A DNA stretch of 51,696 nucleotides from IMG/VR virus record IMGVR_UViG_3300035670_000297, positions 1-51,696 of that record. One strand, written 5' to 3'. This stretch comes from a virus (lineage: Duplodnaviria; Caudoviricetes). The position numbers and the translations under genes were made by a program. Below, piece by piece: positions 821 through 47,789 of the stretch (its first letter is position 1; every line of letters starts with the position of its first letter). The notes below the pieces were generated by a model. It had not been told where the DNA came from. It was given only the letters and a program-made list of their open reading frames with translations, and searched no databases.

Positions 821-858
821 GTCCCCCCACGTCCATCGCTCGATCGGCGTGGGGGGAC
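821..858 (+). terminator. GC-rich hairpin after stop codon (terminator or processing stem)
   Basis: GTCCCCCCACG...CGTGGGGGGAC perfect 11-bp arms; no U-tract. Confidence 0.45.
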
Positions 859-892
859 ATGCCTCTACTACCCCATACACACGGAGACACAC

Positions 893-1429
893 ATGCCACT
901 CTGCATTCCATACATCGACGATGAGATACGCCTCGTTCGCCAATCACGCGTCTCGCCCGCAGACCTTCGTCGCCTAGCCGGCGACCTAGGCATCGGCTCG
1001 AACGTGCCATGGGAAGTTGACATGCGAGACCACGCATTCACCGACCCATCGCCCGTCGCACGGGTAGACCGTGACTCAGTGGACACCCCCAACCTAGGCC
1101 GTCGCATCTGCGACGACGAGCGTTTGCTCCACCTCCGCCGGTACAACCGGATGCTTCGAGCATGGGCCGATAAGATCCTGCTCGACGCAGGCGAGGCAGA
1201 CCTCATCGCCTGGTCCACCGGTACCATCGCCGACTCGTTCCTCGTGCTCGGCCTCAGCCGTGCAGACGCACGTCGTATCATCCGACGCGAGCACAAGCGC
1301 AGCGAGATCGACGACTTGCCCGCACGATGCAAGGCCATGCGAGGCAAGCGATGGTCCAAGACCACACGTGATCGTGACTCCCGTTGGTTCACCCCGCACA
1401 ACTTCAGGAGGACACCCCGTGCCAAGTGA
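893..1429 (+). CDS. Hypothetical protein, 178 aa
   Basis: RBS GGAG then ATG at 893 within ORF 710-1429. Confidence 0.7.
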   Translation: MPLCIPYIDDEIRLVRQSRVSPADLRRLAGDLGIGSNVPWEVDMRDHAFTDPSPVARVDRDSVDTPNLGRRICDDERLLHLRRYNRMLRAWADKILLDAGEADLIAWSTGTIADSFLVLGLSRADARRIIRREHKRSEIDDLPARCKAMRGKRWSKTTRDRDSRWFTPHNFRRTPRAK

Positions 1430-1718
1430 GGCAGCACTCTCCGTCGTCTCTCTCCACCTGATCCCAGGCCAAGAACTTGTTCGGTCCTTGGACTCAAGCC
1501 ACCTTGCCTGCGTCAGCGATGGCAAGTGGAAGACCGGCTATCATCCAACCCAACAACTGATAGACGGCATCCTCAAGTGGAGACTTGAACGTGCCCTGAT
1601 CCAAGACGCACTCCCATTCCTCTCGTCCGACGAGCGAGAGTTCCTGATGACCGGGATCACACCAGCCCAGTGGAAAGCCCTGTTCCCTGAGCCAGCCACG
1701 CCGGCTGATCCCTACTGA
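1419..1718 (+). CDS. Conserved-type phage hypothetical protein
   Basis: AGGAGG then GTG; C-terminal LIQDALPFLSSDEREFLMTGITP..W motif that I recall from other phage hypotheticals. Confidence 0.7.
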   Translation: MPSEAALSVVSLHLIPGQELVRSLDSSHLACVSDGKWKTGYHPTQQLIDGILKWRLERALIQDALPFLSSDEREFLMTGITPAQWKALFPEPATPADPY

Positions 1719-1769: not shown

Positions 1770-1817
1770 ATTCCACCGTCCCCCCATAGTTCCATCGGAG
1801 CTACCCCACAAACCAAC

Positions 1818-2404: not shown

Positions 2405-3097
2405 ATGACTAAGACTCCACTTCCTATCCTCCTCCCCGCACACCCGTCGTGCACCGAATGCGAGTTGCATTCAGGAGCCAGGAACCCAGGAGTCCCATCG
2501 GTCCACCTCCCTGAATCCCTGCCTTTCAGCAGAACCACACCCGTCGTTGCCGTTCTCGGCATGAATCCGGGGCTTCAGGAGGACAGGACCAATGCCCCAT
2601 TCGTCGGCCCATCCGGCCGCCTACTGCGTGACGTGTACCTGCGTGACATCACACCCAACGCTTGCGTCTTCCTGCTCAACACCGCACGCTGCTATACCCA
2701 CTCATCCTCCCCGCCCAAGCCCCGCCACTTTCGCGCCTGCTTTACCACCCACTCCTCACTCGACCTGACCTCCATCGCCGGCGACCTAGCCCACGACACA
2801 CCACGCATCCTGCTCTGCGCCGGCGCCCATGCCCTCTCCACCACCACCAAGTTCTGCGCCTCAAAGCCCTGGTCCTTGACCTCCGCCTTCACCCGGCAAG
2901 GTACACCCACCAACTTGTGGGGGGACTGGCAACTCTTCACCACCTTCCACCCAGCCGCAGTGCTCCGTGATCCCAACCTCCTTCACCCCGTTGCCGATCA
3001 CATGACACTCGTGCACGCAGCACTCACGGGGCAGATGCCTGTAGCATCCAGCCCTCTGCTCGTCCCTCCCTACCTACCACCGGAGGATCCATCATGA
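2405..3097 (+). CDS. udg: Uracil-DNA glycosylase, family 4-like (Fe-S type)
   Basis: CTECELH, GMNPG, PFVGPSGRLL, NTARC, RAC and TFHPAAVLR motifs. Confidence 0.9.
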   Translation: MTKTPLPILLPAHPSCTECELHSGARNPGVPSVHLPESLPFSRTTPVVAVLGMNPGLQEDRTNAPFVGPSGRLLRDVYLRDITPNACVFLLNTARCYTHSSSPPKPRHFRACFTTHSSLDLTSIAGDLAHDTPRILLCAGAHALSTTTKFCASKPWSLTSAFTRQGTPTNLWGDWQLFTTFHPAAVLRDPNLLHPVADHMTLVHAALTGQMPVASSPLLVPPYLPPEDPS

Positions 3098-4285: not shown

Positions 4286-4494
4286 CCCGCATTGCCGACT
4301 GCATTGACATCCTCACCAAAGCCGGATGGATCTACGAAGGCAGCACCAAGATCGAGGGCATCCGCTGCTACATCATGCGCAGGCGCAGCGATGGTGACCC
4401 TGCCGTCCAACAAGGCGTCATCTACTTCACTACCTACGGACTGCGACGTGAAGCAGAGAAGGAACTCAGCAAGCATGAAACTCATTTCGCTTGA
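4282..4494 (+). CDS. Hypothetical protein, 70 aa
   Basis: AAGGAG RBS, ATGA overlap. Confidence 0.75.
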   Translation: MTRIADCIDILTKAGWIYEGSTKIEGIRCYIMRRRSDGDPAVQQGVIYFTTYGLRREAEKELSKHETHFA

Positions 4495-6826
4495 CATCGA
4501 GACCTACGGTGCATGCACCCATACCCACGATGGACGACCGCTCCCCACCCAGACGGTCTTCCATCCAGCGCGCGCCCTCCATACGGACGCGGTGTCCCCC
4601 CAGGACATGGTGCTCTCAGTCAGCGTGACCACCGAAGCAGGCAGTTGCCCATGTGGCAAGCGGCGTGGTCAACCTGAGTTCTCCCCATGCTGCACAATGG
4701 TCATGTACCCCCACTCACACATGATCCACATCCGCAAGTGGATTGAGTGGGCGACCGACATCCTCGGCATGAACCTGCCCTTCGACCTGCAGTTCCTCCG
4801 CCACTACTCACCCGGCCTGCGCCTCGCCCTCCATGGCAGGCACACCCTGCACGATCTCTCGATCCTCAACTACTTGCACTCCGAGCTGCGCCCCGAGCGT
4901 TCGCTCAAGTCCCTCGGCCCCGTGCTCGGCACCCACGCCTACGACCGCACCATCAAGGATGGGAAGTTCAAGTCCCCCCACGATCCGCAGTTCATTGCAT
5001 ACGCAGCACAGGACACACACAACACCATGCTTGCTGCGCGTGAACTGAGGCGACGCATCTACGCCGACTGGCCCGACTCCGGGAAGCTGAGCCCAGAGGC
5101 GGTCAGGCATTACTCCTCCCTCATCTGGACCGTGGTCACCATGGCCGAGGCCGGCATCCCCATGTCCCGCCCCATGCTCGAGACCCGACAAGCCCTGCTG
5201 CAGAGGAAGGCCGACCTCGCCATCGCCCAAGCCGGGCGCCTTGGCCTGCTGCTCGAGGGCACCGGCTCCTCGAAAAGCAAGGAGGCTTTCCTAGATGTGA
5301 CAATAAGTAAACTCGCAGCTCTAGGTGTTGACATTTTATCACACCCCCTTACCCAGTTCACGGAGAAGACGCGTCGTCTCTCCTGGTCAGATGGCAACCG
5401 CCAACTCATTGCTGCTCACCTACCCGCTGACTCGCCCGAGGCTCGTGGCCTTTGGCTGGCCGGCATTCACTCACGCGCCCAGAAGCAGCTCTCCTCTTAC
5501 CTCTACCCCCTACTCCACGGCAGGCGCAACAAGCCGGAGGACAAGGGAGATACGGTAATCCCATGGACGAACACGAAGAACCCAAGTTCCACATCAACGT
5601 CACCTTTGAAACCCAGTTGGACAAAGAGTCCTACCGGGTCACACTCCCCCTCGACGACCTCGCAGAAAGAGTCGTCTCTCTCCACCGACCCTACCTGCTT
5701 GACAAGAACCTGCTCATGCAGGCGATTGCATTCACGGTCATCAGCATGCTCCAGCAAAACGAAGACGACTACATCAGGGAGCGAACGGGCGCCGTCGTGC
5801 TGCGAGCAGAAACCCTGCGACTCGCCAAGCACATGCAGATCATCGTTGACTCCTTCGCAGATGGAATCGAGATCAAGCACACCAGCAAGCTCATCGAGAT
5901 CTCGGACGAAGAAGAGAACGAGGACGACGGAGCCTAAGGCAACGGGCGCCGCCTACCCCGTGTGGTTCATCGTGCCCTCCGCATCCAAGGATGCATCGGG
6001 TGACGAGGGTGGCACCATCCAAGCTCGCATCACCTGCAAGCGTCCTTCGGCCCAGACCTTCCCCCCTGAGATCAAGCAGTGCATCCAATCCAGGTGGGTG
6101 GGGGGACGCATCATCTCGATGGATCTCTCGCAGATCGAGCTTCGGATGGCAGCCCTCTGCTCTGGTGACCCCAGCCTGCTGGCCGCCTTCAACACAGGGC
6201 TGGACCTCCACACCCACCGGGCAGTCCAGCTGTTCGGCCAAGACTCCATCACTCGACCCACCTTCAAGAAGCGTGAGCGGCAGGTGGGCAAGACCATGAA
6301 CTTCGCCGACCTCTTCCTGGCTTCCCCCCAGCGAATGAGGATGTCGGTGCACGAGATGACTGGTGAGCTGATGCCCCTATCCTTCTTCGAGGAAGTGGCC
6401 CGTTCGCGCCCGGATGCGCGTCCCGGTCTCCACAGGTGGCAGCAGTCTCTCATCAGTCGGGTAGCCACGGACGGCTACCTCCTTTTGCCTATCCTTGGTC
6501 AGTCCCGCACATTCGTGGGGGGACCATCAGCCCACCTCAATGAGGTGGTCAACTTCCCCATCCAAACCCAGGCCAGCAACACCCTGATCCAGATCCAGAG
6601 CCGGCTGCTCGAGTACCTGCCCAAGCTCTACACCCAGGGACCCAGGCCCCTGATGTTCCTGCAGGTATACGACGCCATCTACTTCGATGTCCCCCCACAG
6701 TACGAAGACTCCTTGAAGGCTGCGGTCCAGCAGGCGGTGTTGGATGTCGCCTCTCCCTCCGGATACTGGGGCAGGCTGCAGGAGTATTACGGAAACCAGG
6801 TTCCCTTGGAGTACGAGATCGACTAG
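4475..6826 (+). CDS. polA: Family A DNA polymerase with 3'-5' exonuclease and a ~125-codon insertion
   Basis: ExoI LDIETYG, ExoII NLPFDL, ExoIII YAAQD; motif A DLSQIELR; motif B RQVGKTMNF; NFPIQ; motif C QVYD. Confidence 0.92.
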   Translation: MKLISLDIETYGACTHTHDGRPLPTQTVFHPARALHTDAVSPQDMVLSVSVTTEAGSCPCGKRRGQPEFSPCCTMVMYPHSHMIHIRKWIEWATDILGMNLPFDLQFLRHYSPGLRLALHGRHTLHDLSILNYLHSELRPERSLKSLGPVLGTHAYDRTIKDGKFKSPHDPQFIAYAAQDTHNTMLAARELRRRIYADWPDSGKLSPEAVRHYSSLIWTVVTMAEAGIPMSRPMLETRQALLQRKADLAIAQAGRLGLLLEGTGSSKSKEAFLDVTISKLAALGVDILSHPLTQFTEKTRRLSWSDGNRQLIAAHLPADSPEARGLWLAGIHSRAQKQLSSYLYPLLHGRRNKPEDKGDTVIPWTNTKNPSSTSTSPLKPSWTKSPTGSHSPSTTSQKESSLSTDPTCLTRTCSCRRLHSRSSACSSKTKTTTSGSERAPSCCEQKPCDSPSTCRSSLTPSQMESRSSTPASSSRSRTKKRTRTTEPKATGAAYPVWFIVPSASKDASGDEGGTIQARITCKRPSAQTFPPEIKQCIQSRWVGGRIISMDLSQIELRMAALCSGDPSLLAAFNTGLDLHTHRAVQLFGQDSITRPTFKKRERQVGKTMNFADLFLASPQRMRMSVHEMTGELMPLSFFEEVARSRPDARPGLHRWQQSLISRVATDGYLLLPILGQSRTFVGGPSAHLNEVVNFPIQTQASNTLIQIQSRLLEYLPKLYTQGPRPLMFLQVYDAIYFDVPPQYEDSLKAAVQQAVLDVASPSGYWGRLQEYYGNQVPLEYEID
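5296..5343. promoter_or_regulatory. AT-rich imperfect inverted repeat with TTGACA inside polA
   Basis: TGTGACAATAAGTAAAC-N14-GTTGACATTTTATCACA (13/17 match) over a run of rare codons. Confidence 0.4.
5563..5937 (+). CDS. Nested out-of-frame gene inside polA, acidic 124-aa protein
   Basis: AGGGAGA RBS, ATG and TAA; C/G-ending codons; protein-like sequence while the polA frame here is S/T/P/R-rich low-complexity sequence. Confidence 0.8.
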   Translation: MDEHEEPKFHINVTFETQLDKESYRVTLPLDDLAERVVSLHRPYLLDKNLLMQAIAFTVISMLQQNEDDYIRERTGAVVLRAETLRLAKHMQIIVDSFADGIEIKHTSKLIEISDEEENEDDGA

Positions 6827-10907: not shown

Positions 10908-11806
10908 TGAGCACGTTCCAGACAATGGCTACGGGTGCCTCGCCCTCCAAGGGCTTCCCCGGCTTGGGGTTCACCCAGCCCTCTCACTACAGCCTCAAGA
11001 ACATGTGGGGCATGGTGGTAGGCGAGCAGAACAGCGGCAAGTCCTATCTGTTTCAGGGTTGCTCTGACGCATTCATCCTGAATCTGGATCTCACGGCGAC
11101 GGTGTCCCCCCACGCCAATGCGACGGTGTGGCCCGGCATCGGCAAGGATGGCCGGCCCATTGATGTAGGTGGCAAGCCGATCACGCTGACGTGGGATCTG
11201 GTAGAGGCGAAGATCAAGCAGTTGTGTGAGCTGGCGGACAAGGGAATGGATCGCCCATCGATGGTGGTGATCGACACGCTGGCTCCGGCAATCCGAATGT
11301 TGAAGGGCCACGTCGCGCGGCTCATGGGCAAGGAGACGTTCGAGCAGGCCCATGGCCCAGCGGCTTGGGAGAAGTTGTATGACTCGGTGATCGACATTGC
11401 GCACCGACTCAGGCAACATGGGTATGGCGTGTGGATGATCGCGCACCTCAGCCGTGAGTGGGTGGAGATCTCGGAGCACAGCAAGGTGGAGGATCACTAC
11501 CTCAGCCTGCCCCCCGGACTGAAGGAGCGGTTGTCCAAGAGCGTGGAGATCATCGCGCCCATGCGGTGCGAGACCACGGAGAGCACCACCACCGAGCCGG
11601 TGACCGTGACGATTGGTGGCAAGCAGATCACCCAGCAGAAGGTGGTCGTGAAGCGGGAGAACCGCAGGATCCTGGCGTTCGCTGATCCTCGGTACATGCG
11701 GCTGGTGCGCACCCGCACCCTCAAGCCGCTGCCCGACATCGACATCACCAACTCGCCGACTGCATGGCAGGACTTTGAGAAGGCGTTCAACGACGCCACC
11801 TCATGA
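10907..11806 (+). CDS. P-loop ATPase, Sak4/AAA_24-like recombinase
   Basis: Walker A GEQNSGKS, Walker B VVIDT, IAH; lies between an exonuclease and an SSB-like gene. Confidence 0.78.
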   Translation: MSTFQTMATGASPSKGFPGLGFTQPSHYSLKNMWGMVVGEQNSGKSYLFQGCSDAFILNLDLTATVSPHANATVWPGIGKDGRPIDVGGKPITLTWDLVEAKIKQLCELADKGMDRPSMVVIDTLAPAIRMLKGHVARLMGKETFEQAHGPAAWEKLYDSVIDIAHRLRQHGYGVWMIAHLSREWVEISEHSKVEDHYLSLPPGLKERLSKSVEIIAPMRCETTESTTTEPVTVTIGGKQITQQKVVVKRENRRILAFADPRYMRLVRTRTLKPLPDIDITNSPTAWQDFEKAFNDATS

Positions 11807-11993: not shown

Positions 11994-11999
11994 AGTTTG

Positions 12000-12016
12000 T
12001 GGAAGTTAAACTTCCA
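12000..12016. promoter_or_regulatory. Perfect palindrome, operator-like
   Basis: TGGAAGTT-A-AACTTCCA. Confidence 0.4.
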
Positions 12017-12626: not shown

Positions 12627-13203
12627 GGACCAAACGTCCCCCCACGACAGCCCCGGAGGTAACCTGCCCGGTTCCTCCGGGGCATTCTCTTTACAGGGGC
12701 CGGTCGCATCCGGTTGGGCTCACCTCAAGCCCCTCCGGCCTGACCGGCCCCTAGCGTCACGGGCTATCCGACTGTGGATGGCAACTCCCGGGTGGGACAG
12801 GCAGGTGCCTGAAGTCGAGGTCTCCCCCAGGAGAGGTCTACTCCGAGGTAGGGTAGGCCTCGGTTTGTGGATGCGCCCCTGCGCGGGAGGCCTCGACTAC
12901 TGGCTCCTGCTTGGCTGGTCGCCCAAGGGCCCGCCCGTGCCCCCAGATCGACAGACCCGTTGGCTAAGGGCTACGGAGGCTCCCCCCTGGGACTTCCTGC
13001 CCCTGGGCGACGTAGACGTTTCAGGGAGCCTGCATGCCGGCCAGCTGCGGTACCTGGCTTTCCAGATCAGAACCGACATTCGAAACCAGATGGACGCCCT
13101 CCTAGGCCGGCCACTGGTTGACCGCCTTCTCCTGCCCCGGCGTGTGCCGTGGGCCGTCCGTGTCATTGCCCCCCAGACCTATCAGTTCTGGGTGGGCCTG
13201 TAA
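12625..13203 (+). CDS. Possible hypothetical protein (start uncertain)
   Basis: Fills a 600-bp gap, but codon usage is atypical and there is no clear RBS. Confidence 0.4.
   Translation: MDQTSPHDSPGGNLPGSSGAFSLQGPVASGWAHLKPLRPDRPLASRAIRLWMATPGWDRQVPEVEVSPRRGLLRGRVGLGLWMRPCAGGLDYWLLLGWSPKGPPVPPDRQTRWLRATEAPPWDFLPLGDVDVSGSLHAGQLRYLAFQIRTDIRNQMDALLGRPLVDRLLLPRRVPWAVRVIAPQTYQFWVGL
12650..12692 (+). terminator. Terminator-like hairpin
   Basis: GCCCCGGAGG...CCTCCGGGGC followed by ATTCTCTTT. Confidence 0.55.
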
Positions 13204-13226: not shown

Positions 13227-14150
13227 ATGGCTACCTACATCGCACAGTTCAAGCCCGTCGTCTCACCCCCCACCCCCAAGGAGATCCCAGTGGACCTCTT
13301 TACTGCCCCGACCCAGGCCCCCGAGCCGGTTGACATGTCCCTCAGCCCCCGCCTGAAGCAGATCGTGGGGGGAATCGCACAGTCCCGGATGACGGAGAAC
13401 CTCCGAGTCACCGGCCCCAGCGGCTGCGGCAAGACCAGCCTCGGCCAGTGGATCGCCCAAGAGACCAAGCGCCCGCTGCTCATCATGGATTGCGCCGTCG
13501 TCCGTGAGCCCCGCGACTGGTTCGGCTTCCGCACCGTCAAGGATGGCGCCGTCCTGTGGCAGGACACCGAGTTCGTCAGGGCCATCGAGGCTGGCAACTA
13601 CGTCGTGGTCCTCGACGAGTTGAACCGTGCATCGTCCTCCGTCCTCAACGGCCTGTTCCCCCTGCTCGACCACCGCCGGCGTGCGTGGATCGAGGAGCGT
13701 CAGCGTGCAGTGACGGTCGGCGCGAACACCATGTTCATCGCCACCACCAACACCGGTTCCCGCTACGTCGGCGCCGGCCCACTGGATGCTGCGTTGGACG
13801 AGCGCTTCACGCGCGTCATCGAGATGTCCTACCTCAACCGGCAGGACGAGTTGGCTCTCCTCACCCGACGCGTGCCCACGCTGGACGCCAAGTGGGCAGA
13901 GGCGTTGTGCGAGATCGCGGCCAAGACCAGACAGTCCACGTCCAACGTTCGACCCCTCAGCACCAGGCGTGTACTGGCTGCGGCTCAGGACCTGGCGCAG
14001 TATGGTCAGGAGTCTCTGGAGTACACCATCCTCAACTCCAGCTCAGATCCCGTCGAGCGTTCAGCCCTCGCTGCTCTGCTAATCGGCAAGTTCCCCAACA
14101 TCCTGGAAGGCTACAGCGTGCAGACCCCCAACACCACGTCGCCCTTCTGA
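13227..14150 (+). CDS. MoxR/CbbQ/CobS-like AAA+ ATPase
   Basis: GPSGCGKT, VVLDELNR, ATTN, LDAALDERF. Confidence 0.9.
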   Translation: MATYIAQFKPVVSPPTPKEIPVDLFTAPTQAPEPVDMSLSPRLKQIVGGIAQSRMTENLRVTGPSGCGKTSLGQWIAQETKRPLLIMDCAVVREPRDWFGFRTVKDGAVLWQDTEFVRAIEAGNYVVVLDELNRASSSVLNGLFPLLDHRRRAWIEERQRAVTVGANTMFIATTNTGSRYVGAGPLDAALDERFTRVIEMSYLNRQDELALLTRRVPTLDAKWAEALCEIAAKTRQSTSNVRPLSTRRVLAAAQDLAQYGQESLEYTILNSSSDPVERSALAALLIGKFPNILEGYSVQTPNTTSPF

Positions 14151-14171
14151 TCCCCCCACGGAGCTACCCCC

Positions 14172-30376: not shown

Positions 30377-30420
30377 GGGTTTCTCCTAACCCCCCGACGT
30401 GGGGGGACCGGGCCAGTATA

Positions 30421-33499: not shown

Positions 33500-34407
33500 T
33501 ACGGCTTCCAGTCAGGGTTGTCTGGCGTGTACTTCTGCCAACTCTTGCCTGTCCGTGCCTGCATGTTCGACAGGTTGTCGGTAATGGTCTTGAGCGCCAT
33601 GCGGTACTGCTCAACAAGCAACGCATGCTGGGACTGCGAAACCTTTCGCCACGTTCCCAACTTGATTGCAGAAGCCAGCGTTACCGCCTCCGTCATTGAC
33701 TGGAAGTTAGGCGGAGCAACCTCATAGCTGTAGTTTGACACCGACAAAGTAAACGGCCTACCCACCGTAGCAACTCTCGTTGAGGTGTTGTATGCCGTGA
33801 TGATGCGCTCCTCGTGCACGTTCGCGCCATACAGCCTCAGGGTCTGTCCCGCATAAGCGTTGGGACGCTTATCAAGGAGGCCCAGCGTTGGAACACCTGC
33901 AAGGGTGAACGTGGTGGTTGTGGTCAAGTATCCGTTAGCCGGATCGCCCGGACCACTGTGAGAGTAGTAGTGGGGACGCATGTCCCCGTTGGACAGGTAG
34001 AGAACAGTGATGTCTTCCGCCACATCTGGGAATGGGCGGAAACAGATCATGTTGCCCTCCAAGATCCAGCCTGGTCCCCCCACGGCAAACATTCCTCGGG
34101 GCGTCCACTCGCGCTCGTGCAGACCGTTGTCGTCAGAGCCGCTGGAGAACTTGACTACTCGAAGCACCTCGCCCACGCACGGTGGCAGGGTGTAGCACTC
34201 TTGGTCCTTGACCAGCGAGATGTTGAACTTGAGGAGGACCGGGTTCTCCGCGTTCAGGGACAACCGGGCCTGCACATCGACGATCGAGGGCATCACGATG
34301 TGCTGAAGCAGGTACTGATCGTTGTACTTCGCCTCAAAGTCCGCGTCATCCAAGTAGCCGCGAAGCCGCTCGAGGACCGTCTTCAGAAATGATTCGCTGC
34401 TATCCAT
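33499..34407 (-). CDS. Head-tail adaptor-like protein, 302 aa
   Basis: N-terminal helix LERLRGYLDD, DQECYTLP and F.PFPD..Y motifs as in podovirus adaptors. Confidence 0.6.
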   Translation of the reverse strand: MDSSESFLKTVLERLRGYLDDADFEAKYNDQYLLQHIVMPSIVDVQARLSLNAENPVLLKFNISLVKDQECYTLPPCVGEVLRVVKFSSGSDDNGLHEREWTPRGMFAVGGPGWILEGNMICFRPFPDVAEDITVLYLSNGDMRPHYYSHSGPGDPANGYLTTTTTFTLAGVPTLGLLDKRPNAYAGQTLRLYGANVHEERIITAYNTSTRVATVGRPFTLSVSNYSYEVAPPNFQSMTEAVTLASAIKLGTWRKVSQSQHALLVEQYRMALKTITDNLSNMQARTGKSWQKYTPDNPDWKP

Positions 34408-40418: not shown

Positions 40419-42419
40419 TTACCTCTGCATGGGGGGCATGCCCGGCATACCCATTCCTGGGGGCGCGTTTTGAGGTCCCATGGCCATGGCGGCCATCTCG
40501 GGCGAGGGGACCTGCGGGGGCAAAGTTGCCCCCATGAACTGGAGCATCGACTGCTTGTAGTCAGAGAAGGCGTTCTGGACCTCTGGTGAAGCAACCGACA
40601 TGACGGGGCTGGACATGAAGGAGGACAGCAGGCGCATCTGGATGTCAGGCCTGGAGCTGTCTGGGGTCAACACCACCTGCCCCGGATCGTTACCGTTGCC
40701 GTAGAGAACCAGAATGTTCTGGACTCCCATCTCGTAGGCTGATCGTTCCTCCTCAATCCACATCGCGAAGTCGAGACCCTCCTTCAGGGTAAACAGCTTG
40801 AAGGAGTCGGGATCCATGAGGCCGGCTCGAAGGAGTGCCATCGCCTCTTCCTTGCGGGCCACTTCGCTGCGTGGGTTGACCTGACGAACGCCGAAGGTGA
40901 GGTGTCCCACGTGCGGAATCGGGTTCTTGTCAAAGGACACGCTGCCATTCTCAAGGTCGATGACTGCCCCTGCGAGGTCGAGCGTAAGGTTGCTCACCGG
41001 CACTGGCTTGGGGAACTTCACGAGATCCGCAACTGCGCTGCTTACGATTGAGCGGTACATATCCCCGAACGCCCTCTGAATTCCGATTGAGGGGTTGGTC
41101 ATCGCACGGGTGATCTGCTCATCAAGGAACTGCAGACCGGTCGCGCTGTCCACCCGACCCTTCTCCTGAATGAGGTCTTGGATCGGGCTGATGGCGTGCA
41201 TCACCTCGCGGGCAAACTGGGCCACCTTTCCGGGGACATCTCCGGCGTTGGCTGGGCTGATGTTGATGGGGTTGAACTTCTCGTTCAACGGATCAGGCTG
41301 GTAGGCCATGACACGCAGGCCCTTGCCAACCTCTCGAAGCGTGGTTCGCTCGTTGAACGCACCGGCTGGAAGCACCAGAACTCCGTAGCGGTCCACATCC
41401 CGGATGTTGTTGAACAGGCTCTTCATCATCTTCTCCGCCTCGCGAGAGATGCCGAAGAGCAGGTCAAACATGCCGGCTCCATAGAAGGTGCCGGTGTCCA
41501 TGAAACGGGCCCAGCCCAGCGGGCAGTAGACCACACGGTCGGAGTAGTCCTCATCCGACAGCACCACCTCGCCACACGTCACCACGTATCGGGCGCAGGT
41601 ACCGCGAGGGCCATCGAGCCAAAGCTCGCGCACTCGAGCCACCTTTGTGCTCAGGAGGTTGGAGCCAGAGGAGATACCGGTTGAGATTGCACGGCCGTCA
41701 AAGGGATTACGAACAGCGTCGCCGGGCTCATCCAATCCGGCATCCTGAATGGTGTCGCCCGGGTCGGTTGCCCAGTATTCCATCCGGTCCAGGTTCTTCT
41801 GAATGAACGACTTGCCAAAGCGCTCCTCCAAGAACTCCACCGGAACAACGCGCTGGCGCAGCATCCCCTGCTTCTTGGCGTGGTCCTGATGCAGCGCGGG
41901 GAAGGGATAGACCTCACGCGGGTGCACAACCTCAAGGTCTGCCGTCAAGCCGACCGTGGGAACATCAACCAGGTGGCCCTGAATGCCGCAGCATCCCAGC
42001 GTCACGAAGTTGTGTGCAAAGTCGCTGACCACCTGCGACAGGTGATTCTCAGCAACCAAGGAATCTGCAACCACCTGCGCGGCAGCACGCTCCCGGATCA
42101 TCCGCAGGGATGTGCCCTGCCGCATGATTCGGGGCCGAAGATCCATGCTCGCGATCCGGGCCACCGTGCGGTCGATCATCGACAGAAGTTCCTGGCTTTG
42201 GAACTCGACGTTCCCCTCCTTGTCGAGGTAGTGGGGGGACACTCGACCGTTGTACGGGTCAAAGACATCGAACCGCCGGGCACCGTTCAGGTAGTGCCAA
42301 GCCAGCATCCACACCGCACGCCGGTAGGAGTACCTAGCCCTCTCCCGCTCTGCGTGCATACGCAGAAGCTTTGCAATCTCGGTAGGGTCCTTAGGAAGGC
42401 TGATTGTCTGGGCGGGCAC
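40419..42419 (-). CDS. Portal protein (putative), 666 aa
   Basis: Follows TerL; size; VVHPREVYP, GRVDSATG and an M/P/G-rich C-terminal tail. Confidence 0.78.
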   Translation of the reverse strand: MPAQTISLPKDPTEIAKLLRMHAERERARYSYRRAVWMLAWHYLNGARRFDVFDPYNGRVSPHYLDKEGNVEFQSQELLSMIDRTVARIASMDLRPRIMRQGTSLRMIRERAAAQVVADSLVAENHLSQVVSDFAHNFVTLGCCGIQGHLVDVPTVGLTADLEVVHPREVYPFPALHQDHAKKQGMLRQRVVPVEFLEERFGKSFIQKNLDRMEYWATDPGDTIQDAGLDEPGDAVRNPFDGRAISTGISSGSNLLSTKVARVRELWLDGPRGTCARYVVTCGEVVLSDEDYSDRVVYCPLGWARFMDTGTFYGAGMFDLLFGISREAEKMMKSLFNNIRDVDRYGVLVLPAGAFNERTTLREVGKGLRVMAYQPDPLNEKFNPINISPANAGDVPGKVAQFAREVMHAISPIQDLIQEKGRVDSATGLQFLDEQITRAMTNPSIGIQRAFGDMYRSIVSSAVADLVKFPKPVPVSNLTLDLAGAVIDLENGSVSFDKNPIPHVGHLTFGVRQVNPRSEVARKEEAMALLRAGLMDPDSFKLFTLKEGLDFAMWIEEERSAYEMGVQNILVLYGNGNDPGQVVLTPDSSRPDIQMRLLSSFMSSPVMSVASPEVQNAFSDYKQSMLQFMGATLPPQVPSPEMAAMAMGPQNAPPGMGMPGMPPMQR

Positions 42420-42660: not shown

Positions 42661-44572
42661 CAGATTCCTTGGCGATAAGGAGGTGGTTCACATCATCGGG
42701 GCTAAGTCGGTTGAAATCAAGGGTAGCAAGAACCGGTATCCCATTGTCATCAAGTAGAGTTCCGGTCCTCAAAAGATCCAAACCCACCGCCTTGGGGGCG
42801 TCAGGTCCCCCCACGCTCGGGATGCGGAACCGCATGATGATGGTGCTCATCGAGACGGTGTCGAGGTGGTCGTCATGGCCCAAACCGCCGTTCTTGGCCT
42901 CGGGGTTGAACTGCTCGATCTGGTCGAAGAGTTCCCGCCAAGGCTTCTCCATCTTGAGCCACAAGGGCAACTTGATGAGTCCGTGCTCGAACCGGAACAT
43001 CAGGGTGCTGATCTTGCCCTCTTTCTGCATCATGCCCACCCGCAGGGGGACGACTCGGGGGAGGTGGGTCGTGCCGGTCATCTCGGTAGCCCGCTGGCGG
43101 ACCAGGCTTTCGAGCTGTTGGTACAGGGAGGCGGACTCCCGAACCACCTCGGGGTGGATGGTGGGCACCCTCCACTTGTCGGCCAGCCGGAAGACGTTGC
43201 GGACCAGCTCCACCTCGGGAGCCTTGCCAGCCCACATGTCCAGCACGAATAGGCAGTTCTCAGGGGTGGCGGCCATGACGGTTGCCACCTTGTAATCCGA
43301 GTCGGTGCCGTGTGTAAAGGAGGTGTCAATGGCCATGAACAGGCGGCACTGCTGCAGGAACTCCCCGATGGGTCGGCTTCTGGTCTGCTCCTTGTCCCCC
43401 CAGCAAATGAGGGCCTTGGAGTTGTAGGGCTGGAGGGTGAACTCGAGGTCGGGGTTCTCAAGCCACCAGCCGTGGGACTCTCGGGTCAGGACTGGGAAGT
43501 AGTTCTCCCCGCTCTCCCCCGGCCGGCCCCGGTACTCGGCGAGGTAGACCGATGGGCCCAGACGCTCCTTGATCTCCTCGAGGGAGATGCGGTTCTTGAG
43601 CTTGGGGTTGCCCCGCTTGGCATCGCGGGTAAGCGGCCACATCTCGGGCCAGCAGGAGTGGGTGATGCCGTCCTTGTCATACTCCGAATCCAGGAGCATG
43701 CGGGACCAGAACTCAAAGCGGGGGTCTTGGGCACGCGGTCCTTGGGGAGTCTGCTCGGTCTGCATGGCGTGCCATGCGTAGTGACGGCGGGAGACGAAAG
43801 TGGCCAGCCAGCGCACCGAGGTGTCGGGACGCATGAGCATCGGCAGGATGATCTTGAAGAGCAGGGTCTCCACGTAGTCACGCAGGACGCTCATAGAGGT
43901 CGCGGCCTTCGCGTCATACTCCGGGTCATCCAGGACGTAACAGCGGGGGCGGCCACCACGCTGCTTGCTGGAAGCGGAGATGGCGCGGAGCCACGAGCCG
44001 TTCTTCAGGTACATCATCTCCAACCCGAACGAGGCTTCGCCACGGCGGGGGGTGATGCGGTTGTCTGGGAAGTCGGGTGAGAAGTCGTCGAAGATCCGCT
44101 TGTTGTCAGTCAGCTGGCTCTTGACGATTTGGGCTGTTTGCTGCGCGTTGTCGTGCGAGCTGGTGGCGTAGATAAAAGAGAAGGCCGGACGAGTCAGCAT
44201 CTGCAGCAGCATCGACTTGCGGATGCAACTGCTCTTCGCGAATCCGCGAGGTGCAATCACTAGTGAGGACTTGCTGCTCGCCCACTCCTTGTAGATCGAG
44301 TAGTGCCCAAGTGGGGTCGCCACCGGAAGGTCGTCGAAGAACAATGGATTGAAGTCCGCCTCTTCGTCCGGCCAGAGATAATACTTCTCGAAGAAGTTGA
44401 GGGCTGAAATGAAGTCGATCGAGCGCTGCTTCAGGTCGTCGGTTGGAAGTAGCCATTGGCGAGCTGCATTCAAACGAGCAAGTCGCTGCCCTTCCTCGGT
44501 AAGGTCAGCGTAGTCTGCTGGAAGTGGGTGCAGCGGGTTAGCCGGCCTGCCCTCAATCCGCTTTAGATCCAT
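42641..44572 (-). CDS. terL: Terminase large subunit
   Basis: APRGFAKS Walker A, RGGRP..VLDDPE Walker B, AIDTSF..DY and HDDHLD nuclease motifs. Confidence 0.92.
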   Translation of the reverse strand: MDLKRIEGRPANPLHPLPADYADLTEEGQRLARLNAARQWLLPTDDLKQRSIDFISALNFFEKYYLWPDEEADFNPLFFDDLPVATPLGHYSIYKEWASSKSSLVIAPRGFAKSSCIRKSMLLQMLTRPAFSFIYATSSHDNAQQTAQIVKSQLTDNKRIFDDFSPDFPDNRITPRRGEASFGLEMMYLKNGSWLRAISASSKQRGGRPRCYVLDDPEYDAKAATSMSVLRDYVETLLFKIILPMLMRPDTSVRWLATFVSRRHYAWHAMQTEQTPQGPRAQDPRFEFWSRMLLDSEYDKDGITHSCWPEMWPLTRDAKRGNPKLKNRISLEEIKERLGPSVYLAEYRGRPGESGENYFPVLTRESHGWWLENPDLEFTLQPYNSKALICWGDKEQTRSRPIGEFLQQCRLFMAIDTSFTHGTDSDYKVATVMAATPENCLFVLDMWAGKAPEVELVRNVFRLADKWRVPTIHPEVVRESASLYQQLESLVRQRATEMTGTTHLPRVVPLRVGMMQKEGKISTLMFRFEHGLIKLPLWLKMEKPWRELFDQIEQFNPEAKNGGLGHDDHLDTVSMSTIIMRFRIPSVGGPDAPKAVGLDLLRTGTLLDDNGIPVLATLDFNRLSPDDVNHLLIAKESDGSSKV

Positions 44573-44945
44573 TGGCGAATCGTCCCCCCAGCAGAAGGTC
44601 GAGGGTTGCAATGCGGCAGAGGACCGTGATGGTCAAGGCTGGGTCTCGGCTCACAAGGCTGTTGTTGAGGATTACGCGAAGGGCGTTCGTGGCCCAGGGG
44701 CTGAGCTCTTTGTTGGGGAGAAGGCGAGACTCCAGCTCGTAGCCCAGTTGTTCGGGTGAGCCCACCAGTTCGATTGGGTCCTTGAACGCAAGATCAAACA
44801 GGATCTGTCCGCCCGCTCGAGCCATCCCCAGCTGGCCCATCGACCGAAGTTGATCCCGGTGTGGAATCAAGGCTTCCTCGGTCTCCTGAGTCACCGGAGG
44901 GGAGGTACGTGCTTGCGTGACTGGGGCGATCTTCTGACGTGACAT
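44553..44945 (-). CDS. Hypothetical protein, 130 aa
   Basis: GAGGA RBS; first 152 nt overlap the upstream gene. Confidence 0.65.
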   Translation of the reverse strand: MSRQKIAPVTQARTSPPVTQETEEALIPHRDQLRSMGQLGMARAGGQILFDLAFKDPIELVGSPEQLGYELESRLLPNKELSPWATNALRVILNNSLVSRDPALTITVLCRIATLDLLLGGRFANGSKAD

Positions 44946-45279
44946 CGGGGATTTCCTCTTGAATGCGAGAGACGATGCGCGAAGCGGTTAGCGAGACCTC
45001 AAGCTTGCGCCCGTCAGCTTCCTGGGTGCCTCGAATTTCCTGCATCGCGAGAAGGCCCGAGGCCATGGCTGTCTCGCGGAGTACAGCGCGAAGTCTAGCA
45101 TGTGCACGCAGGGAGACGCTGGCGTCTGGGTCCCTAAAGTGCCGAATGAGTGTAGCGATTTCTTCCTCAACCGTGAACTGAGCACGGTCAAGAGCCCGAG
45201 CCACACTATCTGCTCGATAGAAGGTGGGTACCCCCTGGGGGACAATCGGGGCGAGGGATGTGTTGGGGATCTTCTTCAT
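44794..45279 (-). CDS. Hypothetical protein, terminase small subunit candidate
   Basis: TGATG coupling; helical; upstream of terL. Confidence 0.5.
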   Translation of the reverse strand: MKKIPNTSLAPIVPQGVPTFYRADSVARALDRAQFTVEEEIATLIRHFRDPDASVSLRAHARLRAVLRETAMASGLLAMQEIRGTQEADGRKLEVSLTASRIVSRIQEEIPDVTSEDRPSHASTYLPSGDSGDRGSLDSTPGSTSVDGPAGDGSSGRTDPV

Positions 45280-47789
45280 CAACGACCGCGACTCCTCCGC
45301 ATCCTAGGCTTTCTCGGCTTGGTTTTGCGGAGTAGTGGGCTCTCTCGCAGGTCACTCCTGATAAACTCGGACTCCAACTCGCGACGAAGATGGGGTGCAA
45401 CGGAGGTGGGACCAGCAGCAATCGGTTCCACGTTTGATAGGGCTTCCAGCTCGGCCACGCTGAACTGACGTGGCGGCTGGAAAGTTCGAAGAGGCTGTAC
45501 CCGAGAACCAGTCTCAAGGTTCTGTACTCGAATACCGCCTCGGGCTGGAATTGGAAGGCGGGCTGGGGTAAGTCCCCCCACCTCGGGGCCCATTTGGGTC
45601 AGGACCTGGCCTCGGGGGTCCACTCGAGCCCCGATGATGCTGGTGCGTGGGAGTCCGTCGTTCTCCACGATACGAGAGGCGGTGCCTCTGGGTGCGGGGG
45701 ATGCAGGGCGTCCCGTGACTCGGGACAGCCCGGTGCGTGCGGACTGGGTCAACTCACCCTCAGTCAGAATGGGCTCAGGTCCGCCGGATCGGAGAGACGT
45801 AACATCCTTCTTGCGCAGTAGTTCGGTGTCCTCAAGGTCTGGAACAGTCCTGGGCTCCTTACCCGGCATGCGCCGGAGGTCCTCGTGATGTGCCACCAGC
45901 GCTTGAACAGCTCGATTGGCTACGTCTCGTCGGTAGATGGACAGAGCCTTGGACCGTAGGGTTGCTCGATCGGAGCTGATTGGCACCCCCAGACGCTTCT
46001 CCAGGTTGCGAATCTCCCTCTCTGCCCGTGCAGCAGTACTTCGATTGCCGTCACTCGCCTGCATGCGGAGCTGCTCAACGTCCGCCATGAAGGATTTGAT
46101 GAAGTTGGACTGTGCAACCTGAGCGTCTTCAAGTGTGCCAAATCTTCCAACACTACGTGCAAGCTTGATTGCAGCCATTTCATCGGCAGGCGTGACTTGG
46201 GCGCTTCGGATGTTCTGACGTGCCTTGTTAGACACCTTTGAGAGTCCGCCGCTTAGTTCGCCTTCTCCGGGACCCCCAGCAAGTTTGCTTAGGACCTTTT
46301 CAATCTCGAGGAGTTCTCCTTCTTCTCGAGTGCGGGTGGCCTTTCTTTGCACCTTCTGGGCCGTCTCAGTTGTGCGTTGGGCAGCGGCTCGTCCCAGGTT
46401 CACCTGGCCGGCCTGCTCCATGGTGACGGTGGCTGGAAGTCTGCGACGCAGCACCTCAGCAGTAACGTCTGGCGTGGCAGAGGCGGGGAGCTGGGGCAGC
46501 ATACGAGTGATCTTGGAGTAGGGGCCCTGCCTCAGCTGCCTCTTCCGAGCCGGAGGGGGTGTTAGTGACAAAATCTCTCTAACGTCCATAGCCGGCTGGA
46601 TGTATCGGCTGGCGTCTTGCTTGCTTAGGAAGCCGGCGGTCTCGAGCGGTTTGAGGAACTCGGGCTCCACCCCACTACCGCGCATAACTTGGATGGTCCC
46701 CCCACGGACTTCTCTGGGGATGTCACGCTTGAGACGTTCGCGTAGCCGAGACTTGAGCTGCGATTCTGCGGGTGTGTCCTCTGGTGAAGGCTTGAGTTGC
46801 TTGGCGACTTCAGCAAGTTGTGAAAACAGAAGGTCCCGCTGCTTCTTGCTGGCAGACTTCTTGCCTCGGAAGGAGGGGCGGTCGTCTCCTCGCTGCTTGG
46901 CAAACCGGCGCTCCTCGAAAGCGCGTTCGCGGTTGAGGGGTTGGATGCCCTCTGGTGGTTCTGGGGGCAGGTCGGGGCTAGCCGTCAGCTCTTCAAGCTT
47001 CTTGGTGGAAACTCTTCGGAGGGGGCGAGCCTTTGCTCCCAGCTTCTTGGAGCGGGCTTTCTGAGTGCCCTGGGCCTCCTTGAGGATGTCTATTGTTTCC
47101 TCAAGACTTGTGGCCGCCATCGCGCGCTTTGCGGTGCCGGAGTCAAGAGAGTGGGCGGCCTGGATGGCTCGAGCTTTTCCAGGCGGAATGGGGATGAGTT
47201 TATCCCCCTTCTTTGTAATTCGATAAACCTTGCCCCGCTTCGTATTGACAGACTGAACAACTTCCAAGTTCTCTGCAATCGCAAGAGTTGATGAGGAGGG
47301 GCTTTGCGCTCGGCCTGTGGGATACAGCTCCTCAATGAGGATTCCGGCTCCCCGAAGTACGCGAGACCAGTTATCGCGGAATCGGTTGGAGACCTCGGTG
47401 CGGCCTGCCCTTTTGGAGGCTTTGGAGAGCTGGTCAAAGATGTTTGCGCCGTTGGCGAGGGCTTCAGCGTTCCCGGGAACGGGCAGGACGAAGAGCTGAC
47501 CTAAAGCGTCGCCGTAAGAGGCGACTGGAACAAGAACCTTTGGGAGTTGGTAGGCGTTGTAGCCCTTGGGTCGATAACCCAGAAGCCACATTGGTCGGTT
47601 GCCACGAGGGGGAGTGTCGTAGACAAACGTGAGATCGGATGCAGAGACGAATCGGGGAGCCTTGGGACCACCAGAGGGAATGCGAATCTTCACGTCTCGG
47701 CCGAGCTGCTGAAACTCCTTCTCCATCGCGACGAGGGAGACTGGTTTCTCGGGGACGTTGGACTTGGGATTGTCTGGTGATTCTGCCAT
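45279..47789 (-). CDS. Large basic hypothetical protein, ~836 aa
   Basis: Long ORF, R/K/P-rich, no recognised motif. Confidence 0.7.
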   Translation of the reverse strand: MAESPDNPKSNVPEKPVSLVAMEKEFQQLGRDVKIRIPSGGPKAPRFVSASDLTFVYDTPPRGNRPMWLLGYRPKGYNAYQLPKVLVPVASYGDALGQLFVLPVPGNAEALANGANIFDQLSKASKRAGRTEVSNRFRDNWSRVLRGAGILIEELYPTGRAQSPSSSTLAIAENLEVVQSVNTKRGKVYRITKKGDKLIPIPPGKARAIQAAHSLDSGTAKRAMAATSLEETIDILKEAQGTQKARSKKLGAKARPLRRVSTKKLEELTASPDLPPEPPEGIQPLNRERAFEERRFAKQRGDDRPSFRGKKSASKKQRDLLFSQLAEVAKQLKPSPEDTPAESQLKSRLRERLKRDIPREVRGGTIQVMRGSGVEPEFLKPLETAGFLSKQDASRYIQPAMDVREILSLTPPPARKRQLRQGPYSKITRMLPQLPASATPDVTAEVLRRRLPATVTMEQAGQVNLGRAAAQRTTETAQKVQRKATRTREEGELLEIEKVLSKLAGGPGEGELSGGLSKVSNKARQNIRSAQVTPADEMAAIKLARSVGRFGTLEDAQVAQSNFIKSFMADVEQLRMQASDGNRSTAARAEREIRNLEKRLGVPISSDRATLRSKALSIYRRDVANRAVQALVAHHEDLRRMPGKEPRTVPDLEDTELLRKKDVTSLRSGGPEPILTEGELTQSARTGLSRVTGRPASPAPRGTASRIVENDGLPRTSIIGARVDPRGQVLTQMGPEVGGLTPARLPIPARGGIRVQNLETGSRVQPLRTFQPPRQFSVAELEALSNVEPIAAGPTSVAPHLRRELESEFIRSDLRESPLLRKTKPRKPRMRRSRGR

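What the first reader, a model, noticed from the sequence alone, without database searches (positions are those of the whole stretch)
821..46706. Genome-wide iterated non-palindromic motif (G)TCCCCCCAC(G)
Seen, by manual count: 30 exact copies of the 9-mer TCCCCCCAC or its complement, most extended to GTCCCCCCAC and/or TCCCCCCACG. C-form near 821, 4972, 6689, 11104, 12636, 14151, 15399, 17383, 18398, 19600, 22984, 25083, 26849, 29020, 30060, 31929, 34074, 42805, 45572, 46696. G-form near 848, 2917, 6098, 6514, 13364, 15548, 19462, 27005, 30398, 42231. There are also many one-off variants. A rough base-composition estimate predicts about one copy. It occurs in intergenic DNA and in different reading frames (SPH, VPP, VGG, WGD, RGG), forcing otherwise uncommon GGG/GGA codons, so it is a nucleic-acid-level signal. 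The origin iterons are preceded by related G6 runs. Inference: a dispersed binding site analogous to Chi, uptake sequences or HIP1, possibly for priming, recombination, genome organisation or packaging, or a host self-mark.
Basis: partly seen in the sequence, partly recalled or inferred. Interest (0 to 1): 0.85.

Follow-up and report, generated by a model that had tools for sequence, protein, structure and literature searches.

The report
Strand-polar C-run word in phage family
A short DNA word, (G)TCCCCCCAC(G), is written about thirty times more often than chance into this complete phage genome and its uncultured relatives, mostly on one strand and evenly spaced, and it probably serves the phage's own DNA replication.

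Summary
TCCCCCCAC occurs 31 times in the window against about 1 expected. Synonymous-codon shuffles leave about 1.4 of the 25 genic copies. C6 runs carry fixed flanks; C4 and C5 runs do not.

The window is a complete 51.7-kb phage of an uncultured family. Relatives with GC 0.45-0.68 carry the same word. Deeper clades carry variants: TC7AC, ACCCCCACTG and CACCCCTCCCATC.

In seven genomes the C-form lies on the helicase-coding strand 167:63. This holds along the whole genome and does not depend on gene direction. Majority-strand sites are spaced more evenly than random. They are conserved above background in close relatives but turn over in distant ones.

One clade-matched copy in the opposite orientation sits beside the iteron origin. 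Two candidate host bins are not enriched.

Best reading, about 0.35: a phage-read replication signal that marks strand-specific initiation. No primase domain was found. Rivals are T5/tf-type nick sites and a Chi-like signal.

The parts
822..830 (+). exact TCCCCCCAC; left arm of hairpin pair 821-858, non-genic
849..857 (-). exact copy; right arm of the hairpin pair
2917..2925 (-). exact copy in the UDG-like gene
4973..4981 (+). exact copy in the DNA polymerase gene; conserved in 5 of 5 clade-A genomes
6098..6106 (-). exact copy
6515..6523 (-). exact copy; conserved in 5 of 5 clade-A genomes
6690..6698 (+). exact copy
11105..11113 (+). exact copy in the Sak4-like gene; conserved in 5 of 5 clade-A genomes
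12637..12645 (+). exact copy
13365..13373 (-). exact copy
14151..14159 (+). exact copy, non-genic
15399..15407 (+). exact copy
15548..15556 (-). exact copy
17383..17391 (+). exact copy
18398..18406 (+). exact copy
19462..19470 (-). exact copy
19600..19608 (+). exact copy
22985..22993 (+). exact copy
25083..25091 (+). exact copy
26849..26857 (+). exact copy
27006..27014 (-). exact copy
29021..29029 (+). exact copy
30060..30068 (+). exact copy
30399..30407 (-). exact copy
31929..31937 (+). exact copy
34075..34083 (+). exact copy
42231..42239 (-). exact copy in the 666-aa gene next to the terminase gene (portal role assumed from position, not tested); partly conserved
42806..42814 (+). exact copy in the terminase large-subunit gene
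45573..45581 (+). exact copy
46697..46705 (+). exact copy
1779..1786 (+). core-only copy TCCCCCCA. Other core-only copies on + start at 4595, 6323, 18428, 36044, 43395 and 44583; on - at 6960, 16553 and 22863
49320..49700 (.). origin-like region: AT-rich stretch plus GACCAC / GTGGTC iterons, directly after the helicase gene
49414..49419 (+). G6 run abutting an iteron (GGGGGG-TGACCAC)
49490..49496 (+). G7 run abutting an iteron
49645..49653 (+). near-copy in G-orientation on the helicase strand (GTGGGGGG then C in place of A), beside the iterons; exact in relatives
47920..49314 (+). D5-like SF3 helicase gene without a primase domain; reference for the polarity
4292..6826 (+). family A DNA polymerase gene

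Best explanation
General part (my confidence about 0.85). (G)TCCCCCCAC(G) is a real, selected, strand-polar signal of an uncultured phage family. It is read by a factor that evolves with the phage, not by a mark of the host genome. Specific mechanism (inferred; the confidence figure below applies to this part). The word is a replication signal read on single-stranded template. Replication starts at the iteron origin just downstream of the D5-like helicase gene and runs in one direction, as unidirectional theta or rolling circle. One copy beside the iterons, in G-orientation on the helicase strand, starts the continuous strand. The 20-28 dispersed copies in the opposite orientation, about one per 2 kb, start or restart discontinuous synthesis on the other template. 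The phage's family A polymerase extends these starts. Shown: enrichment, specificity, polarity, even spacing, purifying selection, family-wide variants, and the reversed clade-matched origin copy.
For: 1. The core is sharply specific. The 11-mer GTCCCCCCACG occurs 58 times against 0.37 expected in six genomes. Positions T-C6-A hardly tolerate substitution, and the outer three positions do. 2. Polarity. The C-form lies on the helicase strand 167:63 in seven genomes, with no flip along the map. The ratio is the same in genes on the helicase strand (56:22), genes on the other strand (94:32) and non-genic DNA (17:9). Clade D has the same polarity, 52:25, as does contig G012:C464 (9:0 after orienting on its polymerase). 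3. Origin. In 30 loci, the 650 nt after the helicase gene hold G>=5 versus C>=5 runs at 100:35, against 467:513 elsewhere. A clade-matched G-form 8-mer is present there in 12 of 29 loci (G:C 12:1, against 69:184 elsewhere), mostly 192-216 nt after the helicase gene and right of the iterons. It is G6 in clade A, G7 in the C7-type genomes and CAGTGGGGGG in clade D. A site on the opposite strand at the origin is what a priming model of one-way replication predicts. 4. Majority-strand sites are spaced more evenly than random: CV 0.53-0.84 against 0.93-0.96, with 4 of 7 genomes at p<=0.014. 5. Sites are kept above background, for example 6 of 6 against 0.44 for random 8-mers in L010 and 5 of 8 against 0.19 in L013. 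6. The G-form begins with GTGG. This is the template word reported for the NrS-1 primase-polymerase (passages of PMC8718748). Such primases usually accompany D5-like helicases (recalled, not tested here). 7. At four-fold sites the helicase strand is slightly C-rich once the two gene sets are averaged.
Against: No Prim-Pol or Toprim domain was found in the window or in five family genomes of four clades. Pfam and PHROG scans of about 60 ORFs gave no primase domain; the only 'DNA primase' PHROG matches cover the helicase half of those profiles. Known primases read 3-5 nt (passages); an 8-11-nt site has no precedent. A quarter of the copies lie on the other strand, and these too are far above chance. 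Only 12 of 29 origin windows hold an exact G-form 8-mer, and the loci are not independent. The skew signal is small and confounded by codon usage. There are no physical data: only contigs, not reads, were available.
Confidence: 0.35

Rival explanations
1. Recognition sites of a phage-encoded nicking enzyme, giving localized single-strand interruptions in virion DNA as in T5, phiKMV-like phages and Pseudomonas phage tf.
For: The published pattern is very similar. Phage tf has 14 copies of the 9-mer TACT/RTGMC, all nicked and all on the top strand. They span two convergent transcription units. Relatives carry a one-base variant, and the authors propose that nickase and sites co-evolve (abstract and passages of PMC3517423). 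Here too the word is a non-palindromic 8-11-mer, lineage-specific with variants and strand-biased regardless of transcription. The phage encodes a family A polymerase and two conserved nucleases of the restriction-enzyme fold class, ERCC4-like and PD-(D/E)XK. As a weak hint, 6 of 31 contig ends in two low-coverage assemblies lie within 25 nt of a site, against about 6% expected (my hand count).
Against: tf, T5 and phiKMV sites are all on one strand. Here 27% are on the other strand, and these are themselves enriched. Opposite-strand pairs 22-33 nt apart are not avoided: 7 observed against 3.1 expected. Nicking both members of such a pair would risk a double-strand break. Spacing is even, whereas tf nicks cluster in one half of the genome. 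A reversed copy at the origin has no role in this model. No nickase was identified.
Confidence: 0.2
2. A Chi-like signal that switches an end-processing helicase-nuclease (host RecBCD or AddAB, or a phage exonuclease) from degradation to recombination. It would protect rolling-circle tails and feed the phage's Sak4/SSB recombination module.
For: The word is G-rich on one strand, dispersed and evenly spaced, with about 73% polarity. That figure resembles what I recall for Chi on leading strands in E. coli (recalled, not from a call). A paper reporting over-representation of Chi in some phage genomes was seen as a listing and abstract only (PMC3784561). The phage carries an exonuclease, a Sak4-like protein, a probable SSB and an ERCC4-like nuclease.
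Against: A host Chi should follow the host. Here the word follows the phage clade across GC 0.45-0.68, with variants. The two bins that hold relatives are not enriched outside the phage contigs. None of 201 genomes of one bin's phylum is enriched. The density (1 per 1.2-1.7 kb) and the enrichment (30-150 fold) are far above what I recall for Chi. The reversed origin copy is left unexplained.
Confidence: 0.12
3. A polar guide or docking word for a DNA translocase or a condensing protein, such as the packaging motor or the very conserved basic proteins encoded at 35470-36100. This would resemble KOPS for FtsK.
For: Polarity is uniform along the whole genome and spacing is even. The G-form lies on the strand that encodes the terminase and the late genes. 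Two adjacent, very basic proteins are more conserved than the terminase (69-92% identity against 71-72% in the clade-A genomes that have them).
Against: I know of no phage packaging motor that reads dispersed words (recalled). Nothing links the basic proteins to the word. The origin copy and its co-variation with the dispersed word point to replication.
Confidence: 0.08
4. A word inherited from the host genome (self-mark, uptake sequence, HIP1-like repeat), or a by-product of composition, codon usage or assembly.
For: Only the general resemblance to over-represented bacterial words.
Against: Codon and dinucleotide shuffles and Markov models all fail to produce it. It recurs in more than 80 independently assembled contigs. 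It is not enriched in the candidate bins, in 201 genomes of one phylum, or in E. coli K-12, which has 7 copies. It is strand-polar, unlike uptake sequences.
Confidence: 0.03

Closest known systems
Nick (sci) consensus sites of phages tf, phiKMV-like phages and T5
   Same: A short non-palindromic word that is specific to a phage lineage, far above chance, strand-biased regardless of transcription direction, and shows one-base variants between relatives (PMC3517423).
   Different: Those sites lie on one strand only, number 4-14 per genome, are unevenly placed and are positionally conserved among relatives. Here 27% lie on the other strand, there are 28-41 per genome, spacing is even, positions turn over, and a reversed copy sits at the origin. 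Nicks were not tested here.
Primase template-recognition sites (T7 gp4 GTC; AEP primases with helix-bundle domain: pRN1 GTG, NrS-1 GTGG/GTGA; plant Twinkle (G/C)GGA)
   Same: A strand-specific word read on single-stranded template. The G-form starts with GTGG and ends with GGGA. The helicase is of the D5-like kind that usually accompanies such primases (the T7 and pRN1 words are partly recalled).
   Different: Known sites are 3-5 nt long and, as far as I know, are not reported as genome-wide enriched or polar words (recalled). No primase domain is detectable in this family.
Chi sites and other polar architecture words of bacteria (KOPS)
   Same: Over-represented, G-rich on one strand, statistically polar, dispersed.
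   Different: Those belong to host chromosomes and switch polarity at ori and ter. This word belongs to a phage lineage, does not switch, has a different sequence and is much denser.
Stoperators of cluster A mycobacteriophages (recalled, not tested)
   Same: Tens of copies of an asymmetric 13-14-bp site spread over a phage genome and read by a phage protein.
   Different: Stoperators are oriented with transcription and lie mostly between genes. This word ignores transcription direction and lies mostly inside genes.

Membership tests
Localized-nick (sci) sites of T5/tf/phiKMV type | A physical nick at the site in virion DNA | not testable with these tools
   Only assembled contigs of public runs were available.
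Localized-nick (sci) sites of T5/tf/phiKMV type | All sites on one DNA strand | tested here: not met
   167:63 in seven genomes. tf has 14 of 14 on one strand.
Localized-nick (sci) sites of T5/tf/phiKMV type | Lineage-specific consensus shared by relatives, with small variants | tested here: met
   TC6AC, TC7AC and AC5ACTG in different clades.
Primase recognition sites | Primer synthesis starts at or next to the word | not testable with these tools
   Needs biochemistry or nascent-strand mapping.
Primase recognition sites | A primase is encoded or recruited | tested here: not met
   No PF09250, PF13155 or PF13662 match in the window or in five family genomes. No primase domain among about 60 ORFs scanned. 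A novel or host primase is not excluded.
Primase recognition sites | Sites lie on the lagging-strand template; the leading-strand start lies on the other strand at the origin | tested here: inconclusive
   Uniform polarity and a reversed origin copy fit. Fork direction is inferred only from a weak skew.
Chi | Over-represented and leading-strand-skewed in the host chromosome | tested here: inconclusive
   Not enriched in the two bins that hold relatives or in 201 genomes of one phylum. The true hosts are unknown.
Chi | Changes the activity of RecBCD or AddAB | not testable with these tools
   Needs an enzyme assay.
KOPS / FtsK-orienting words | Consensus GGGNAGGG (recalled) and a polarity switch at ori and dif | tested here: not met
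   Different word. No switch along the genome.
DNA uptake sequences / HIP1-type host repeats | Genome-wide word of the host, without strand polarity | tested here: not met
   29 of 36 copies in bin G011 lie on phage contigs. The word is polar.

The most novel reading that the evidence does not exclude
This phage family has no recognisable primase. It may replicate with a genome-wide 'initiation code': an 8-11-nt word that co-evolves with an unknown reader, set once at the origin for one strand and about every 2 kb in the opposite sense for the other strand. More boldly, it could be a G-rich RNA made from the origin copy that pairs with the dispersed C-runs on displaced single strands and is then extended by the family A polymerase, much as ColE1 RNA II is extended by Pol I (the ColE1 comparison is recalled). 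The substitution pattern, with a strict centre and tolerant ends, would suit base pairing as well as a protein reader.
Probability: 0.3. Interest if true: 0.9.

Novelty: new variant of a known kind. Interest (0 to 1): 0.8.

Why it matters
Dispersed polar words such as Chi and KOPS are textbook features of bacterial chromosomes. Nick consensus sites are a fifty-year-old puzzle in a few cultured phages. Here one word, with clade-specific variants, marks a whole uncultured and widespread phage family found in freshwater, subsurface and marine-labelled samples. Its polarity, spacing, conservation and origin-linked counterpart are clear enough to design experiments from sequence alone. If it directs strand initiation, it would show how a polymerase-A phage without a primase starts its lagging strand. 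It would also be the first long, genome-wide selected initiation signal. If it marks nicks, it extends that phenomenon to a new family and offers a much richer data set on how sites and enzyme co-evolve. Either way, the word is a simple sequence signature for recognising members of this family in metagenomes.

Tried and rejected
**No cultured relative.** Megablast of half the window found nothing, and tblastn of the terminase, polymerase and 666-aa gene products found only weak hits of 23-29% identity or none.

**Literature.**
- A search for the motif strings returned only unrelated primers and human or HIV sequences (347 papers, 20 listed).
- Searches on primase sites, Chi in phages and nicks found no description of this word or this family.

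**Transcription signal rejected.** Polarity ignores gene direction and most sites are intragenic.

**Protein-motif origin rejected.** The word is read in several frames, and synonymous shuffles remove it.

**Mobile mini-element rejected.** Nothing is conserved beyond 11 nt.

**Bidirectional replication with a polarity flip rejected.** No flip appears in any of the seven genomes.

**Scan for the same word in other phage families.**
- A scan of viral contigs for hairpin pairs of the word gave 59 loci.
- 58 hold only 2-4 copies of the core in the stretch fetched.
- The one dense case (L114/G213) is a repeated intergenic element, not a dispersed word.
- This scan cannot see dispersed single copies, so other families are not excluded.

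**Reader protein not found.** Atlas look-ups suggest that 11997-12590 is SSB-like (DUF669 in 11% of one cluster) and say nothing about 12604-13203. The product of 10446-10907 has a small conserved domain and an acidic tail. No structure prediction was run.

**Other nulls.**
- Rfam found no family in the window.
- No tRNA genes were found.
- No methyltransferase was seen among the ORFs scanned. A weak sub-threshold DUF1599 hit exists.

**Public runs.**
- All 20 runs found are kept as contigs.
- Laying four of them cannot show molecule ends.
- Its variant table was cut (40 rows shown, 951 not shown), so conservation at sites could not be counted from it.

**Host range.** A class-level scan centred on E. 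coli was not possible, so Proteobacteria were not sampled.

Full report
**1. The observation**

TCCCCCCAC occurs 31 times in the window, 21 on the + strand and 10 on the - strand. Dinucleotide shuffles give 0.97. One copy, at 29601, was missed. Under a third-order Markov model the motif words are the most enriched 9- and 10-mers of the genome.

C-run lengths fall about threefold per step and then bulge at exactly six. The 75 C6/G6 runs have fixed flanks (G-T-C6-A-C-G), while C4 and C5 runs do not. Nothing is conserved beyond about 11 nt. Synonymous-codon shuffles leave about 1.4 of the 25 genic copies, and whole-codon shuffles leave about 0.7. The word is read in at least six different peptide contexts. 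It is therefore a signal at the DNA level.

**2. What the window is**

The window is a whole IMG/VR virus record of 51,696 bp. Its 127-bp terminal repeat is probably an assembly overlap of a circular or permuted genome. The genes fall into three blocks.

- 1-16.2 kb on the + strand holds a UDG-like protein, a family A DNA polymerase, an ERCC4-like nuclease, a PD-(D/E)XK exonuclease, a Sak4-like ATPase, a probable SSB and an AAA/VWA pair.
- 16.5-47.8 kb on the - strand holds the structural genes and the large terminase.
- From 47.9 kb on the + strand lies a D5-like SF3 helicase. It is followed by an AT-rich stretch and GACCAC/GTGGTC iterons, which look like an origin.

These assignments rest. 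No cultured relative exists in the phage collection. Public runs that hold the sequence are labelled subsurface, soil, pond, freshwater, marine and estuary.

**3. Family-wide conservation and variants**

The terminase finds 49 related viral contigs. Nearly all carry the word at about 3-9 copies per 10 kb. This includes relatives with GC 0.45-0.46 and 0.68.

Whole genomes at 72% terminase identity hold 21-25 exact copies each, against 0-2 for the reversed-word control. A further, 87% complete record holds 27.

Deeper clades carry variants of the word.

- A clade at 56% terminase identity (G007 and kin) carries TC7AC: CCCCCCCAC 32 against 0.95 expected.
- A clade at 41-43% helicase identity carries ACCCCCACTG.
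- One fragment at 44% terminase identity carries CACCCCTCCCATC, 13 copies of the core CCCCTCCC in 12 kb.

Across six genomes the 11-mer GTCCCCCCACG occurs 58 times against 0.37 expected. The eight core positions hardly tolerate any change, and the three outer positions do.

**4. Not a host word, as far as can be tested**

In the 3.6-Mb bin that holds a relative, 29 of 36 copies lie on three small contigs. These contigs encode the phage's helicase, terminase, tail protein, polymerase and exonuclease. In a second bin, 6 of 14 copies lie on one phage contig.

None of 201 genomes of the first bin's phylum approaches phage density. The highest holds 290 copies in 6.9 Mb, with a control count of 236. 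E. coli K-12 has 7 copies.

The true hosts are unknown, and Proteobacteria could not be sampled. Even so, a word that follows the phage tree across such different base compositions points to a reader that evolves with the phage.

**5. Polarity**

I oriented seven genomes on the helicase gene. The C-form of the core then lies on the helicase strand 28:13, 21:7, 20:8, 23:8, 26:11, 21:8 and 28:8, which sums to 167:63. There is no flip anywhere along the map.

The ratio is the same in genes on the helicase strand (56:22), genes on the other strand (94:32) and non-genic DNA (17:9). Density is also the same in the three classes, about 0.63-0.73 per kb. Transcription-linked functions are therefore excluded.

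The minority orientation is itself far above chance. The three contigs of bin G011 show weaker polarity in the same direction, 23:13 after orienting (my sum).

**6. Selection on sites**

Majority-strand sites are spaced more evenly than random in all seven genomes. The CV is 0.53-0.84 against 0.93-0.96 for random placement. Four genomes reach p<=0.014, but these four are related to each other.

In close relatives the cores are conserved above random 8-mers. Examples are 8 of 8 against 0.80, 6 of 6 against 0.44, 5 of 5 against 0.43 and 5 of 8 against 0.19. The loci overlap, so these are not independent tests.

At 72% protein identity only 3-6 of 15-18 alignable sites remain, and at 56% only 1 of 10. 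The six non-genic sites were not tested. Individual sites are thus protected in the short term, while density and polarity are maintained in the long term.

**7. The origin**

In all clades the region just after the helicase gene holds iterons, whose sequence differs by clade, and an AT-rich stretch.

Of the 50 helicase loci, 30 had at least 500 nt downstream of the helicase gene. In those 30, that 650-nt window holds G>=5 versus C>=5 runs at 100:35 on the helicase strand, against 467:513 in the rest.

A clade-matched G-form 8-mer is present in 12 of 29 windows. The G:C ratio there is 12:1, against 69:184 elsewhere. From the background density I estimate about 3 G-form and 8 C-form copies would be expected. 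In most cases the copy lies 192-216 nt after the helicase gene, right of the iterons. It is G6 in clade A, G7 in the C7-type genomes and CAGTGGGGGG in clade D. In the window itself this copy carries one mismatch (49645-49653).

The loci are not independent, and 17 of 29 lack an exact copy. Still, the reversal and the co-variation tie the word to replication.

**8. Mechanism**

A signal with the following properties fits strand-specific initiation in one-way replication best:

- it is read in one sense over the whole genome;
- it is evenly spaced at roughly the length of an Okazaki fragment;
- it has a single counterpart of opposite sense at the origin.

The origin copy would start the continuous strand, and the dispersed copies would start the discontinuous one. 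Two further points agree with this. The G-form begins with GTGG, the template word of the NrS-1 primase-polymerase (passages of PMC8718748). It ends with GGGA, the template word of plant Twinkle (abstract of PMC5737085).

Several points count against this reading.

- No primase domain is detectable in the window or in five family genomes.
- No known primase needs 8-11 nt.
- Fork direction rests only on a small residual skew.

I put this mechanism at about 0.35.

**9. Rivals**

The nearest published pattern is the nick consensus of phage tf. It has 14 of 14 copies on one strand across convergent transcription units, with a variant in relatives (PMC3517423). Against that reading here:

- 27% of copies lie on the other strand;
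- close opposite-strand pairs are not avoided, 7 observed against 3.1 expected, and all are hairpin-forming;
- spacing is even;
- the origin copy has no role in that model.

A Chi-like role fits the polarity and the recombination genes, but not the phage-lineage specificity. A guide for packaging or condensation is possible but has no precedent that I know of. An origin from the host genome or an artefact is largely excluded.

**10. Verdict**

It is a family-wide, strand-polar, origin-linked word with clade-specific variants, found in an uncultured phage family that lacks a recognisable primase. Its kind, a dispersed polar recognition word, is known. This instance and its link to the origin are, by the searches named above, not described. 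The mechanism is inferred and needs physical mapping of nicks and of nascent-strand ends.

Noticed in passing
whole window; G003, G007, G214-G216: No Prim-Pol or Toprim domain was found in the window or in five family genomes of four clades. The D5-like helicase aligns only with the helicase half of PHROG 'DNA primase' profiles. The family therefore seems to lack a recognisable primase.
   Followed up: partly
window 35470-36263 (-): Two adjacent, very basic small proteins (one matches DUF5872) and a 53-aa neighbour are more conserved than the terminase: 69-92% identity in the clade-A genomes that have them, and 79% even on the distant contig G012:C464. Their function is unknown. They may bind DNA.
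   Followed up: partly
window 45279-47801 (-): An 840-aa ORF between the terminase region and the helicase gene has no Pfam or PHROG match and no homologue in any of the seven relatives compared. It looks like a strain-specific cargo gene at the divergent junction.
   Followed up: partly
L077 (12 kb; contig of bin G012): A distant relative (44% terminase identity, GC 0.66) lacks TC6AC. It carries 13 copies of the core CCCCTCCC (consensus CACCCCTCCCATC), in both orientations (7:6).
   Followed up: partly
G012:C464 (53 kb; L082-L083): The same Bacteroidota-labelled bin holds a second family member, with TCCCCCCA 9:0 on the polymerase-coding strand. Two family members sit in one bin. Whether this reflects a host link or a binning artefact is open.
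   Followed up: no
window 29413-30021 (-): A weak, sub-threshold match to DUF1599 ('nucleotide modification associated domain 1', E 0.0011), in an ORF that overlaps another call (29757-30434). It could hint at DNA modification.
   Followed up: no
window 14001-34000, runs X2 and X3: Among the contig pieces shown (32 of 141), 6 of 31 internal contig ends of the two low-coverage assemblies lie within 25 nt of a motif site, against about 6% expected. This is a hand count. It may reflect a loss of coverage at G/C runs, or nicked template.
   Followed up: no
window 20456-21476 and 30543-33966: Contigs of other samples skip or replace 182-1373 bp here. These are variable cassettes in the tail region of otherwise 95-99% similar strains.
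   Followed up: no
G213 (L114), 40-46 kb: An unrelated 81-kb, GC 0.72 viral contig carries a repeated intergenic element. It consists of two direct TCCCCCCA copies and one inverted copy about 20 nt apart, and it recurs every 1.7-1.8 kb.
   Followed up: partly
window 12604-13203 (+): This ORF translates to a P/G/R/W-rich sequence that looks off-frame, yet it aligns at 27-35% identity with the same region in all relatives. The true gene may lie in another frame.
   Followed up: no
window 13149-16208 (+): An AAA_5 ATPase (CobS/MoxR-like) followed by a 678-aa protein with a weak VWA match. The ATPase is found in three and the VWA-like protein in four of the four clade-A genomes compared (G001, G003-G005). 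Neither was found in G007, the G011 contigs or G012:C464.
   Followed up: no
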